This document shows, piece after piece, positions 2-4,162 of a stretch of 4,372 nt of DNA. A model generated the notes under the pieces. The model worked only from the letters and a program-made list of their open reading frames with translations. It was not told where the DNA came from and made no database searches. The stretch lies in the IMG/VR virus record IMGVR_UViG_2778261526_000001; one strand, given 5' to 3'. The translations under genes and the position numbers were made by a program. The DNA is from a virus. Lineage: Duplodnaviria; Heunggongvirae; Uroviricota; Caudoviricetes. The first letter of the stretch is position 1; each line of letters begins with the position of its first letter.

Positions 2-622
2 GCGTCACCGGGCATGGCACGCATCTGCCTTTACGGGGATTTACAACGATTTGGCCGCCGCATCGACCTTCGTGTGACAACGGGGGCCGAAGCCATCCGG
101 GCGCTGGCCACGCAGCTTCCGTCGTTTCGCCAGAAACTGAATGAGGGCTGGTATCAGGTGCGCATTGCCGGGCGTGATGCAGGCGAAAATGAATTATCAG
201 CCCGTCTTAATGAACCGCTGGCAAATGGTGCTGTGATCCATATCGTGCCGCGTCTGGCAGGAGCCAAAAGTGGCGGTGTGTTTCAGGCGGTGCTGGGTGC
301 GGCGCTGATTGCAGTGGCGTGGTGGAACCCTGCAGGCTGGCTGGGAGCTGCGGCTTTATCGGGCATGTATGCTGCGGGGGCCAGTATGATCCTTGGCGGT
401 GTGGCGCAGATGCTGGCACCGAAAGCCAGAACTCCCCGTACACAGACAACGGATAACGGTAAGCAGAACACCTATTTCTCCTCACTGGATAACATGGTTG
501 CCCAGGGCAATGTTCTGCCCGTTCTGTACGGTGAAATGCGCGTGGGGTCGCGGGTGGCTTCTCAGGAGATCAGCACGGCAGACGAAGGGGACGGTGGTCA
601 GGTTGTGGTGATTGGTCGCTGA
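2..622 (+). CDS. I: Tail assembly protein I (lambda gpI family), 5'-partial; stop TGA at 620-622
   Basis: ORF-track frame 14..622 stays open back to the window edge (codons ASPG precede Met14). The translation ...MARICLYGDLQRFGRRIDLRV...KSGGVFQ...APKARTPRTQTTDNGKQNTYFSSLDNMVAQGNVLPVLYGEMRVGSRV...GGQVVVIGR matches my recollection of lambda gpI (223 aa), so the true start lies about 20 codons upstream of the window. It sits 60 nt upstream of J, as in lambda. Confidence 0.9.
   Translation, partial: ASPGMARICLYGDLQRFGRRIDLRVTTGAEAIRALATQLPSFRQKLNEGWYQVRIAGRDAGENELSARLNEPLANGAVIHIVPRLAGAKSGGVFQAVLGAALIAVAWWNPAGWLGAAALSGMYAAGASMILGGVAQMLAPKARTPRTQTTDNGKQNTYFSSLDNMVAQGNVLPVLYGEMRVGSRVASQEISTADEGDGGQVVVIGR
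3..77 (+). CDS. Probable 3' end of the upstream tail assembly gene (lambda gpK-like), 5'-truncated by the window edge
   Basis: Frame +3 is open from the window edge to TGA at 75-77 (24 sense codons, RHRAWHASAFTGIYNDLAAASTFV). In lambda, as I recall it, K overlaps the start of I by about 100 nt in the +1 frame relative to I, which is this frame. The evidence is synteny plus a short open frame only; I do not recognise the peptide itself. Confidence 0.3.
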   Translation, partial: RHRAWHASAFTGIYNDLAAASTFV

Positions 623-682: not shown

Positions 683-3600
683 ATGGGTAAAGGCAGCAGT
701 AAGGGGCATACCCCGCGCGAAGCGAAGGACAACCTGAAGTCCACGCAGTTGCTGAGTGTGATCGATGCCATCAGCGAAGGGCCGGTTGAAGGTCCGGTGG
801 ATGGATTAAAAAGCGTGCTGCTGAACAGTACGCCGGTGCTGGACACTGAGGGGAATACCAACATCGCCGGTGTCACGGTGGTGTTCCGTGCCGGTGAGCA
901 GGAGCAGACACCGCCGGAGGGGTTTGAATCCTCCGGCTCCGAGACGGTGCTGGGTACGGAAGTGAAATATGACACGCCGATCACCCGCACCATTACGTCT
1001 GCAAACATCGACCGTCTGCGCTTTACCTTCGGTGTGCAGGCACTGGTGGAAACCACCTCAAAGGGGGACCGGAATCCGTCGGAAGTTCGCCTGCTGGTTC
1101 AGATACAGCGTAATGGTGGCTGGGTGACGGAAAAAGACATCACCATTAAGGGCAAAACCACCTCGCAGTATCTGGCCTCGGTGGTGGTGGATAACCTGCC
1201 GCCGCGCCCGTTTAATATCCGGATGCGCAGGATGACGCCGGACAGCACCACAGACCAGCTGCAGAACAAAACGCTCTGGTCGTCATACACCGAAATCATC
1301 GATGTGAAACAGTGCTACCCGAACACGGCACTGGTCGGCGTGCAGGTGGACTCGGAGCAGTTCGGCAGCCAGCAGGTGAGCCGTAATTATCATCTTCGCG
1401 GACGCATTCTGCAGGTGCCGTCGAACTATAACCCGCAGACGCGGCAATACAGCGGTATCTGGGACGGAACGTTTAAGCCAGCATACAGCAACAACATGGC
1501 CTGGTGTCTGTGGGATATGCTGACCCACCCGCGCTACGGCATGGGTAAACGTCTTGGTGCGGCAGATGTGGATAAATGGGCGCTGTATGTCATCGGCCAG
1601 TGTTGCGACCAGTCGGTGCCGGACGGTTTTGGCGGCACGGAGCCGCGCATCACCTGTAATGCCTGGCTGACCACACAGCGTAAGGTGTGGGATGTTCTCA
1701 GTGATTTCTGCTCGGCGATGCGCTGTATGCCGGTATGGAACGGGCAGACGCTGACGTTCGTGCAGGACCGACCATCAGATAAGGTGTGGACCTATAACCG
1801 CAGTAATGTGGTGATGCCGGATGATGGCGCGCCGTTCCGCTACAGCTTCAGCGCCCTGAAGGACCGCCATAATGCCGTTGAGGTGAACTGGATTGACCCG
1901 AACAACGGCTGGGAGACGGCGACAGAGCTTGTGGAGGATACGCAGGCCATTGCCCGTTACGGTCGTAATGTCACGAAGATGGATGCCTTTGGCTGTACCA
2001 GCCGGGGGCAGGCACACCGCGCCGGGCTGTGGCTGATTAAAACGGAGCTGCTGGAGACGCAGACCGTGGATTTCAGCGTGGGTGCCGAAGGGCTTCGCCA
2101 TGTACCGGGCGATGTTATTGAAATCTGTGATGATGACTATGCCGGTATCAGCACCGGTGGTCGCGTGCTGGCGGTGAACAGCCAGACCCGGACGCTGACG
2201 CTCGACCGTGAAATCACGCTGCCATCCTCCGGTACCACGCTGATAAGCCTGGTTGACGGAAGTGGCAATCCGGTCAGCGTGGAGGTCCAGTCCGTCACCG
2301 ACGGCGTGAAGGTAAAAGTGAGCCGTGTTCCTGACGGCGTTGCCGGATACAGCGTATGGGGGCTGAAGCTGCCGACGCTGCGCCAGCGCCTGTTCCGCTG
2401 CGTGAGTATCCGTGAGAACGATGACGGCACGTATGCCATCACCGCCGTGCAGCATGTACCGGAAAAAGAGGCCATCGTGGATAACGGGGCGCACTTTGAC
2501 GGCGACCAGAGCGGCACGGTGAATGGTGTCACGCCGCCAGCAGTGCAGCATCTGACCGCAGAAGTCACCGCAGACAGCGGGGAATACCAGGTGCTGGCCC
2601 GCTGGGACACGCCGAAGGTGGTGAAGGGCGTGAGCTTCCTGCTTCGCCTGACCGTGGCAGCGGATGACGGCAGTGAGCGGCTGGTCAGCACGGCCCGGAC
2701 GACGGAAACCACATACCGCTTCACGCAACTGGCGCTGGGGAATTACAGGCTGACAGTCCGGGCGGTAAATGCGTGGGGACAGCAGGGCGATCCGGCATCG
2801 GTATCGTTCCGGATTGCCGCACCGGCAGCGCCGTCTCGGATTGAGCTGACGCCGGGCTATTTTCAGATAACCGCCACGCCGCATCTTGCGGTTTATGATC
2901 CGACGGTACAGTTTGAGTTCTGGTTCTCGGAAAAGCGGATTGCGGATATCAGGCAGGTTGAAACCACAGCACGCTATCTTGGTACGGCGTTGTACTGGAT
3001 AGCCGCCAGTATCAATATCAGGCCGGGCCATAATTATTATTTTTACGTTCGCAGTGTGAACACCGTTGGCAAATCGGCATTCGTGGAGGCTGTTGGTCAG
3101 CCGAGTGATGACGCATCCGGCTATCTGGATTTTTTCAAAGGCGAGATAGGGAAAACCCATCTGGCTCAGGAGCTGTGGACGCAGATTGATAACGGTCAGC
3201 TTGCGCCTGACCTGGCTGAAATCAGGACATCCATTACGGATGTCAGCAATGAAATCACACAGACCGTCAATAAGAAACTGGAAGACCAGAGTGCAGCGAT
3301 CCAGCAGATACAGAAGGTTCAGGTTGATACAAATAATAACCTGAACAGCATGTGGGCTGTGAAGCTGCAGCAGATGCAGGACGGACGCCTTTATATTGCG
3401 GGTATCGGTGCCGGTATTGAGAATACGCCAGCAGGAATGCAGAGTCAGGTGCTGCTGGCGGCAGACAGGATTGCGATGATTAATCCTGCGAATGGCAACA
3501 CAAAGCCGATGTTTGTTGGTCAGGGTGATCAGATATTCATGAACGACGTGTTCCTGAAATATCTGACGGCTCCCACCATTACCAGCGGCGGTAATCCTCC

Positions 3601-4162
3601 TGCATTTTCCCTTACACCGGACGGGCGACTGACGGCGAAAAATGCGGATATCAGTGGCAGTGTGAATGCGAACGCCGGGACGCTCAACAATGTCACGATA
3701 AATGAAAACTGTCGGGTTCTGGGAAAACTGTCTGCGAACCAGATTGAAGGCGATCTCGTTAAAACAGTGGGCAAAGCTTTCCCCCGGGACTCCCGTGCAC
3801 CGGAGCGGTGGCCATCAGGGACCATTACCGTCAGGGTTTATGACGATCAGCCGTTTGACCGGCAGATTGTTATTCCCGCGGTGGCGTTTCGTGGCGCTAA
3901 ACATGAGCGGGAGAATAACGATATTTATTCGTCATGCCGCCTGATAGTGAAGAAAAACGGTGCTGAAATTTATAACCGTACCGCGCTGGATAATACGCTG
4001 GTTTACAGTGGCGTTATTGATATGCCTGCCGGTCACGGTCACATGACGCTGGAGTTTTCGGTATCAGCGTGGCTGGTAAATGACTGGTATCCCACAGCCA
4101 GTATCAGTGATTTGCTGGTTGTGGTGATGAAGAAATCCACAGCAGGTATCACGATTAGCTGA
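683..4162 (+). CDS. J: Host specificity protein J / central tail fibre (tail tip) protein, lambda gpJ family; 1159 aa
   Basis: Single 3480-nt ORF with ATG at 683 and TGA at 4160-4162. N-terminus [34 protein letters not shown]... and a long internal stretch match my recollection of lambda J (1132 aa). It contains FN3-like repeats and a C-terminal region ending ...[11 protein letters not shown] that is homologous to but divergent from the lambda receptor-binding end. Position is between I and lom. Confidence 0.97.

What the first reader, a model, noticed from the sequence alone, without database searches (positions are those of the whole stretch)
3143..3349. Expanded Q/N-rich helical linker in J accounts for the extra length relative to lambda J
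Between the conserved DFFKG and MWAVK motifs this protein has 69 residues ([69 protein letters not shown]) where I recall about 41 in lambda. That 28-residue difference essentially equals the total length difference (1159 vs 1132 aa). The segment is low-GC, rich in Q, N, I, T and charged residues, with a heptad-like feel (IQQIQKVQV), consistent with a coiled-coil stalk of variable length that positions the receptor-binding tip.
Basis: partly seen in the sequence, partly recalled or inferred. Interest (0 to 1): 0.45.

Follow-up and report, generated by a model that had tools for sequence, protein, structure and literature searches.

The report
Longer helical shaft in phage J protein
The 69-residue stretch is the helical shaft of a lambda-like phage's central tail fibre; it carries one 29-residue repeat unit that phage lambda lacks, and it is a common natural length variant of a known domain rather than a new kind of element.

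Summary
J (683..4162, 1159 aa) has 69 residues between DFFKG and MWAVK where lambda J has 41. The +28 here and a 1-residue indel in the receptor-binding domain explain 1159 vs 1132.

The segment is the homologue of lambda gpJ's alpha-helical shaft (residues 809-861). That shaft is a three-helix bundle below FNIII-2, and in lambda it partly refolds into beta strands when LamB binds.

The extra length is one copy of a 29-residue unit (J843-871) plus a short Gly/Pro kink. Other E. coli J proteins carry 3 or 6 such units, giving shafts of 142 and 240 aa. Lambda keeps only a 7-residue remnant.

The 69-aa form is the commoner allele: 3552 of 5426 complete E. coli genomes against 2517 for lambda's form. 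Phage 21 carries it.

It is always inherited with its own upper-fibre type. It is not tied to the receptor-binding domain type, because the same domain type occurs with 41-, 69- and 142-aa shafts.

Its sequence is under strong purifying selection.

The "variable-length helical stalk" reading is partly right. The "expansion" and "tip-positioning linker" parts are not supported. Interest is modest.

The parts
683..4162 (+). J-type tip attachment / central tail fibre protein, 1159 aa
   Evidence: ORF. It carries the Pfam domains FNIII-A_GpJ, Phage-tail_3, Ig_J, Ig_J_second, Phage_Tail_Tip and Ig_GpJ_C. It is 85% identical to lambda J overall and about 98% identical over residues 1-820.
2828..3136 (+). 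FNIII-2 domain (Ig_J_second, J716-818), immediately upstream of the shaft
   Evidence: Pfam PF24489, E = 3.5e-39. It is 91% identical to lambda.
3107..3349 (+). Whole alpha-helical shaft homologue (J809-889); lambda's equivalent is 809-861
   Evidence: Alignment A1 mapped onto the domain limits given in PMC11101478.
3107..3187 (+). Upper helix (J809-835), alignable with lambda 809-835
   Evidence: Conserved DFFKG, I822, H826, L827, E830 and L831. AF2 predicts helices at J812-836 and J811-825, at low confidence.
3188..3208 (+). Predicted kink or loop DNGQLAP (J836-842), absent from lambda
   Evidence: It contains Gly and Pro. The single-sequence AF2 model breaks its helices here at J837-841; the 10-sequence model places its break at J826-836, just upstream and touching only D836. 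It lies in the gap region of alignment A1.
3209..3295 (+). One 29-residue shaft repeat unit [29 protein letters not shown] (J843-871); lambda keeps only its last 7 residues (LTEDNAS)
   Evidence: The unit matches 3 copies at exact 29-residue spacing in P0156 and 6 copies in P0141. All score above the 95th percentile of shuffled-unit maxima, and lambda has no such match. This is the best-predicted part of the AF2 helix (pLDDT 65-77).
3296..3349 (+). C-terminal 18 residues of the shaft, [18 protein letters not shown] (J872-889), homologous to lambda 844-861
   Evidence: Ungapped alignment with lambda [18 protein letters not shown]. Lambda 841-861 is the stretch reported to turn from helix into beta strands on LamB binding (PMC11101478).
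3350..3544 (+). Upper central straight fibre (J890-954), co-inherited with the shaft type
   Evidence: In 160 viral loci, all 80 with a 69-aa shaft carry the window-type upper fibre and all 80 with a 41-aa shaft carry the lambda type. Nucleotide identity to lambda is 58-73%.
3541..3720 (+). Conserved island (about J954-1013), the likely recombination joint between the shaft/upper-fibre module and the receptor-binding domain
   Evidence: 80-90% nt identity to lambda, flanked by 50-70% blocks. Lambda residue 964 in this island was the graft point for working J chimeras (PMC11338833).
3767..4159 (+). Receptor-binding domain (Ig_GpJ_C, J1029-1159), a separate mosaic module
   Evidence: Pfam PF12421. 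The last 150 aa are 43% identical to lambda's. The closest solved chain is 9wca 'A8 gpJ 713'.

Best explanation
[quoted passage not shown] It sits between the second FNIII domain and the beta-prism fibre.

By homology with lambda gpJ 809-861, three copies form a helix bundle that ties the three FNIII-2 domains together and so helps keep the tail tip closed. On receptor binding the bundle loosens. Its C-terminal part refolds as beta strands on top of the fibre prism, and this lets the tip open.

This allele differs from lambda's in three ways. It has a Gly/Pro kink (J836-842). It has one full 29-residue repeat unit (J843-871; hydrophobic pattern 7+11+11, as in a nearly straight bundle). Lambda has only a 7-residue remnant of that unit. 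If fully helical, the extra 28 residues would lengthen the shaft by about 4 nm.

Shaft length in E. coli J proteins follows the pattern N-part + n x 29 + 18 residues, with n about 0, 1, 3 and 6, giving 41, 69, 142 and 240 aa.

Shown: homology, length classes, the repeat unit, linkage patterns and selective constraint. Inferred: trimeric helical state, switching behaviour and the physical extension.
For: - Domain order and flanks are those of lambda gpJ. The lambda domain limits and the conformational change are taken from PMC11101478.
- Helix predictions: J812-836 and J842-876; J811-825 and J837-890, with pLDDT 65-77 over J841-880.
- Amphipathic periodicity of 3.6 residues in J842-889, p about 0.005.
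- The 29-residue unit occurs at exact 29-residue spacing in P0156 (3 copies) and P0141 (6 copies). Both are E. coli J proteins.
- The isolated phage PhiR40_1 has a 142-aa shaft.
- Close relatives fall into discrete classes only: 41 (16 proteins) and 69 (142 proteins), plus two singletons at 40 and 68. Viral loci split 80 and 80.
- Relatives that have diverged to about 50% identity in the shaft still keep exactly 69 residues.
- pN/pS is 0.03 in the shaft, against 0.12 in FNIII-2 and 0.05 in the upper fibre.
- Shaft class and upper-fibre type are perfectly linked. This fits the shaft's C-terminal part docking on the top of the fibre in the open state.
Against: - There is no solved structure of the 69-aa form.
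- Both AF2 models are monomers with low overall confidence (mean pLDDT 37.8 and 49.2), so a trimeric bundle is not demonstrated.
- Whether the extra unit switches to beta structure is untested.
- The sequence pattern reported for the F7 pyocin switch (SxSxxMxxLxS) is essentially absent. There is one reverse match in the window, and none in lambda either.
- The shaft/upper-fibre linkage could simply reflect the absence of any conserved DNA between them for recombination.
- The pN/pS sums come from 80 non-independent comparisons with the window.
Confidence: 0.72

Rival explanations
1. Passive spacer. The shaft is a rigid stalk whose length is tuned to place a particular receptor-binding domain at the right distance from the tail tip for its receptor.
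For: - Shaft length varies from 41 to about 785 residues among J-like proteins.
- In lambda the central fibre holds the tube about 17 nm from the cell in reversible complexes (cited in PMC12617516), so fibre length does set a stand-off distance.
Against: - The same receptor-binding domain cluster as the window's occurs with 69-aa shafts (68 loci) and 41-aa shafts (8 loci). Two other clusters are also shared between the two classes.
- PhiR40_1 joins a receptor-binding domain 90% identical to the window's to a 142-aa shaft.
- Foreign receptor-binding domains grafted onto lambda's short-shaft J work well (PMC11338833).
- A mere spacer would not be expected to show pN/pS of 0.03.
Confidence: 0.12
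2. Functionally neutral allele. The 41- and 69-aa shafts are interchangeable versions of the same switch. The length difference has no phenotypic consequence and persists only because the shaft travels with a divergent upper-fibre cassette in mosaic recombination.
For: - Both alleles are very abundant: 6979 places in 3552 genomes against 3747 places in 2517 genomes.
- Both occur in plaque-forming phages (phage 21, lambda and 434).
- Both occur with the same receptor-binding domain types.
- The two alleles lie within one divergent DNA block.
Against: - Length is held at exactly 69 across relatives that have diverged to about 50% identity in the shaft.
- Amino-acid change is strongly selected against, so each form is constrained. 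This does not show that the two forms differ in function.
Confidence: 0.3
3. Docking site. The Gly/Pro kink introduced with the extra unit is an attachment point for an accessory protein or side fibre, as in F-type pyocins, where side fibres bind a Gly-induced kink of the shaft.
For: - In the F2 pyocin, three side-fibre trimers attach at a kink (G955) of the alpha-helical shaft (PMC13455828).
- The window's shaft has DNGQLAP where lambda has none.
Against: - In Ur-lambda the side fibres attach through a collar at the gpV/gpM junction, not to the shaft (PMC12617516).
- I did not test whether shaft class goes with any downstream fibre gene. No partner was identified.
Confidence: 0.04

Closest known systems
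Alpha-helical shaft (AHS) of phage lambda gpJ, residues 809-861 (PDB 8XCJ/8XCK, 8IYK; Ge & Wang 2024, PMC11101478)
   Same: It has the same position between FNIII-2 and the beta-prism fibre. The flanks are the same (DFFKG and MWAVK). The first 15 or so and last 25 or so residues are alignable. The surrounding protein is 98% identical up to residue 820.
   Different: The window's shaft is 28 residues longer. It has a Gly/Pro kink and one full 29-residue unit that lambda lacks. It is Q/N/T-rich where lambda's is E/K/W-rich. Its middle cannot be aligned with lambda. It comes with a different upper-fibre type.
J proteins of phage 21, VT1-Sakai, Stx2 phage 1717, cdtI, mEp332 and Ayreon, and thousands of E. 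coli prophages
   Same: They carry the same 69-aa shaft allele at 93-100% nt identity. The window itself is 99.9% identical to a prophage in E. coli CE0026a.
   Different: Nothing essential differs in the shaft. These J proteins differ in receptor-binding domain type. None has a solved structure of this region, as far as the PDB sequence search shows.
Longer-shaft E. coli J proteins: phage PhiR40_1 / PhiR49_2 and GDM45370.1 (142 aa), WP_436627100.1 (240 aa)
   Same: They have the same architecture and the same 29-residue unit, and they end in the same 18-residue cap. PhiR40_1 shares the window's N-terminal 820 aa (94% identity) and its receptor-binding domain (90% identity).
   Different: They carry 3 or 6 units instead of 1. 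They have a longer N-part (37 or 48 residues instead of 22) and a third upper-fibre type (57% identity).
Central fibre coiled coil of F-type pyocins (F7: 163-residue coiled coil that switches to a beta-prism, PMC12874032; F2: extended AHS, PMC13455828)
   Same: It is a trimeric helical shaft between the FNIII domains and a beta-prism in a J-like protein. Its length varies, and it changes conformation on target binding.
   Different: It is much longer, and the whole shaft switches. Its strand motif SxSxxMxxLxS is not found here. The F7 authors state that lambda does not show the same extensive switch.

Membership tests
Lambda gpJ-type tip attachment / central tail fibre protein | Full domain series: hub domains, FNIII-1, FNIII-2, tail-tip fibre and C-terminal Ig-like receptor-binding domain | tested here: met
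   Pfam PF24801, PF13550, PF24421, PF24489, PF09327 and PF12421 are all far above their cut-offs. The protein is 85% identical to lambda J.
Lambda gpJ-type tip attachment / central tail fibre protein | Gene context: follows tail assembly gene I and precedes lom | tested here: met
   The upstream ORF 14..622 matches Lambda_tail_I. The annotated neighbours in matching records are K, I, J and Lom.
gpJ alpha-helical shaft (AHS) | Lies between the end of FNIII-2 and the start of the beta-prism fibre, with homologous boundaries | tested here: met
   The DFFKG and MWAVK anchors and the alignable ends are shown. The lambda limits 809-861 come from PMC11101478.
gpJ alpha-helical shaft (AHS) | Alpha-helical secondary structure | tested here: inconclusive
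   Both AF2 monomer models predict helices over most of J811-890, but confidence is low to moderate (mean pLDDT 37.8 and 49.2, with 65-77 only over J841-880). Periodicity of 3.6 residues is significant for J842-889 only.
gpJ alpha-helical shaft (AHS) | Trimeric three-helix bundle in the closed virion | not testable with these tools
   Only monomer prediction was available, and no solved structure contains the 69-aa form.
gpJ alpha-helical shaft (AHS) | Helix-to-strand refolding of the C-terminal part on receptor binding | not testable with these tools
   This is known for lambda 841-861 (PMC11101478). The window's J869-889 is the aligned stretch, but its behaviour was not tested.
Canonical heptad coiled coil | Unbroken 3-4 hydrophobic heptad register | tested here: not met
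   The register assignment needs shifts. The conserved hydrophobic columns of the unit are 2, 5, 9, 16 and 20, which gives 7+11+11 = 29 residues per 8 turns. Periodicity peaks at 3.6 rather than 3.5.
[quoted passage not shown] | Repeated SxSxxMxxLxS strand pattern in the switching region | tested here: not met
   A regex scan of J801-960 gave no forward match and one reverse match (J871). Lambda gave none.
[quoted passage not shown] | Both helical and beta-prism conformations predicted for the trimer (AF3 / CF-random) | not testable with these tools
   Trimer prediction and MSA-depth sampling were not available.

The most novel reading that the evidence does not exclude
The 29-residue units may be quantised switching modules. 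On receptor binding, each unit would convert from helix into an extra layer of strands on the fibre prism, as lambda 841-861 does. Shaft copy number (0, 1, 3 or 6 units in E. coli J proteins) would then set how much conformational energy or stroke the tail tip releases. If so, lambdoid phages form a graded natural series between lambda's small switch and the 163-residue switch of the F7 pyocin.
Probability: 0.2. Interest if true: 0.6.

Novelty: new member of a known kind. Interest (0 to 1): 0.3.

Why it matters
The shaft is the part of J that lambda structures identify as the latch between receptor binding and opening of the tail tip.

E. coli phages carry it in discrete lengths (41, 69, 142 and 240 residues), built from a 29-residue unit. 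The same receptor-binding domain type occurs on the 41-, 69- and 142-residue shafts. That gives a ready-made natural series for testing what shaft length does to triggering, stability and DNA ejection.

It also matters for engineering lambda-based delivery particles, where only the short lambda shaft has been used so far.

It corrects a lambda-centred view. The textbook 41-residue shaft is the minority form and the shortest one I found.

The finding does not reveal a new kind of element.

Tried and rejected
1. Recent DNA duplication as the source of the extra 28 residues. Tandem Repeats Finder found nothing in 3000-3600, and the only direct repeat is a 12-nt chance-sized pair. The protein shows no internal 29-residue autocorrelation, because it has a single unit.

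2. The F7 pyocin strand motif is essentially absent.

3. Single-sequence AF2 of J716-1159 gave mean pLDDT 37.8, and a 10-sequence alignment gave 49.2. I used only their secondary structure, and I ran no fold search because matches to such low-confidence models would be meaningless.

4. I tried to deepen the alignment by searching with the most divergent 69-aa relative (P0167). The search returned mostly the same highly conserved E. coli allele.

5. Low GC as a sign of a foreign insertion is rejected. The whole C-terminal third of J has lower GC, in lambda too.

6. The idea of a side-fibre docking site was weakened by the Ur-lambda structure.

7. My literature searches found no description of shaft length classes in lambdoid J proteins. 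The library is incomplete, so this is not proof of absence.

Full report
**What is in the window.** The window holds a tail assembly I-like gene (14..622), a 1159-aa J gene (683..4162) and the start of a lom-like region. It is a lambdoid prophage segment of E. coli. It is 99.9% identical to a stretch of the chromosome of strain CE0026a, and it matches 4671 of 5426 complete E. coli genomes at some level.

**Checking the observation.**
- Positions 3143..3349 encode exactly the 69 residues quoted, J821-889, between DFFKG and MWAVK.
- Lambda J, fetched from J02459, has 41 residues between the same motifs.
- The first 820 residues align without gaps at about 98% identity. The only other indel is one residue in the C-terminal domain. 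So the 28-residue difference accounts for 1159 vs 1132.
- Q+N enrichment is real: 16 of 69 against 9.5% elsewhere, p = 6.5e-4.
- The low GC is real but is shared by the whole C-terminal third, in lambda too.

- The shaft is a bundle of three helices under the FNIII domains. It anchors the three FNIII-2 units.
- On LamB binding it flips by about 180 degrees. Residues 809-840 remodel, and residues 841-861 become additional strands on top of the prism.
- These limits coincide with the segment in question. The window's J809-889 is therefore the shaft homologue.
- The PDB sequence search found only lambda-type shafts in solved chains (8xcj, 8iyk, 9wca). It aligned the window in two pieces that skip the middle of the segment.

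**Helicity.**
- AF2 on J716-1159 without an alignment gave a poor model (mean pLDDT 37.8), with helices at J812-836 and J842-876.
- A 10-sequence alignment of J791-960 gave mean pLDDT 49.2, with helices at J811-825 and J837-890. Only J841-880 reached pLDDT 65-77.
- Hydrophobic periodicity in J842-889 peaks at 3.6 residues and exceeds about 99.5% of shuffles.
- I take this as moderate support for a helical shaft with a break near DNGQLAP. The trimeric state is inferred from lambda.

**Nature of the extra 28 residues.**
- Only the first 15 or so residues ([15 protein letters not shown] against KITESHLGKELLEKV) and the last 25 or so ([25 protein letters not shown] against [25 protein letters not shown]) align with lambda.
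- Other E. coli J proteins have shafts of 142 aa (P0156, GDM45370.1) and 240 aa (P0141, WP_436627100.1).
- Those two proteins show a strong 29-residue autocorrelation. The window's J843-871 matches their repeats at exact 29-residue spacing: 3 copies in P0156 and 6 in P0141. Lambda has no match above the shuffle threshold.
- All four shafts fit the pattern N-part + n x 29 + 18:

| Protein | N-part | Repeat part | C-terminal cap | Total |
|---|---|---|---|---|
| lambda | 16 | 7 | 18 | 41 |
| window | 22 | 29 | 18 | 69 |
| P0156 | 37 | 87 | 18 | 142 |
| P0141 | 48 | 174 | 18 | 240 |

- The conserved hydrophobic columns of the unit (2, 5, 9, 16, 20) give a 7+11+11 pattern, or 3.63 residues per turn. 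By general coiled-coil knowledge this is what a nearly straight helix bundle needs.
- There is no DNA-level tandem repeat, so the unit is old rather than a recent duplication.

**How common the long form is.**
- The 207-nt segment occurs at 6979 places in 3552 of 5426 complete E. coli genomes. Lambda's 123-nt equivalent occurs at 3747 places in 2517 genomes.
- In phage records the counts are 65 and 82. The long form is in phage 21, VT1-Sakai, Stx2 phage 1717, cdtI, mEp332 and Ayreon. The short form is in lambda, 434, HK630 and mEp460.
- Among close relatives the lengths are discrete: 41 and 69, plus two singletons at 40 and 68.
- Six relatives that have diverged to roughly 50-65% identity within the shaft still have exactly 69 residues.
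- More distant J-like proteins have 95 to about 785 residues. 41 is the shortest I measured.
- Lambda therefore looks like the contracted form. This is an inference from distribution, not from a rooted tree.

**Mosaic structure.** Against lambda, nucleotide identity along the window runs as follows:

| Window position | Identity to lambda | Region |
|---|---|---|
| 421-2940 | about 96% | J up to mid FNIII-2 |
| 2941-3140 | 83-88% | end of FNIII-2 |
| 3141-3540 | 50-73% | shaft plus upper fibre |
| 3541-3720 | 80-90% | conserved island |
| 3721-4162 | 48-67% | receptor-binding domain |

- In 160 IMG/VR loci, shaft class and upper-fibre type are perfectly linked, 80 of 80 in each class.
- Receptor-binding domain clusters are shared between shaft classes:

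| Receptor-binding domain cluster | With 69-aa shaft | With 41-aa shaft |
|---|---|---|
| window type | 68 | 8 |
| second cluster | 6 | 28 |
| third cluster | 1 | 31 |
| lambda type | 0 | 6 |

- The isolated phage PhiR40_1 (J of 1232 aa) combines a 142-aa shaft with a receptor-binding domain 90% identical to the window's.
- Working chimeras made by grafting foreign receptor-binding domains onto lambda J at residue 964 point the same way (PMC11338833).
- Shaft length is therefore not matched to the receptor-binding domain.

**Constraint.** Summed over 80 long-type loci compared with the window, pN/pS is 0.03 in the shaft, 0.12 in FNIII-2 and 0.05 in the upper fibre. The comparisons are not independent, but the shaft is clearly not a freely drifting linker.

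**Mechanism.** I commit to the lambda model: a trimeric helical latch that holds the FNIII-2 domains and refolds on receptor binding. Here it has one added 29-residue unit and a kink.
- If fully helical, 28 residues add about 4 nm (1.5 A per residue). This is inference.
- Whether the added unit also refolds is open. The F7 pyocin work (PMC12874032) shows that a whole 163-residue shaft can switch to a beta-prism, but its sequence motif is not present here.
- The side-fibre docking seen on F-pyocin shafts (PMC13455828) is unlikely here, because Ur-lambda side fibres attach at the gpV/gpM collar (PMC12617516).

**Verdict.** It is wrong in its direction ("expanded") and in the role it proposes (tip positioning). 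The feature is a common allele of a known domain. The 29-residue unit rule, and the series of shaft lengths that carry one receptor-binding domain type, are useful but modest additions.

Noticed in passing
window 181-420 (inside the I-like gene 14..622): The middle of the tail assembly I gene is a second divergent patch against lambda (55-80% nt identity with indels), flanked by 92-100% identical DNA. The product is 202 aa against lambda's 223.
   Followed up: no
window 3722-4159 (J1014-1159): The receptor-binding domain is only 43% identical to lambda's. Its closest solved chain is 9wca 'A8 gpJ 713'. A8 is a natural E. coli J C-terminus reported to use OmpC (PMC11338833). This J therefore probably does not use LamB, and OmpC is a candidate receptor.
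   Followed up: partly
window 3470-3565 (J930-961, F952): The stretch equivalent to lambda J 902-933 is conserved, including F952 (= lambda F924). That lambda peptide is reported to activate the Gifsy-1 abortive-infection nuclease HepS, with F924S as the escape mutation (PMC13043305). This phage would be predicted to trigger HepS. The PDB hit 9oik 'J tail tip' covers this stretch.
   Followed up: partly
protein P0273 (E. coli), shaft region: P0273 is a recombinant within the shaft itself. Its N-terminal part comes from a second 69-aa subtype (KIGKLHLAQGLWELIDNSQLA), joined at the kink to the window-type unit (PDLAEIRTS...). The kink can therefore act as a crossover point between 69-aa subtypes.
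   Followed up: no
proteins P0250 and P0251 (the latter in the cluster of Burkholderia phage BcepGomr J): More distant J-like shafts have a 32-residue periodicity rather than 29 residues.
   Followed up: no
proteins P0243, P0259, P0262: Several very long shafts (406-785 aa) contain stretches that do not look helical (rich in aromatic residues, Gly and Pro) in the middle of the repeats. They may be inserted globular domains like the 'insertion domain' described in the F2 pyocin shaft.
   Followed up: no
window 1775-3160, minus strand: A 461-aa open reading frame runs antisense to J. It has no supporting evidence and is most likely a by-product of the GC-rich sense frame.
   Followed up: no
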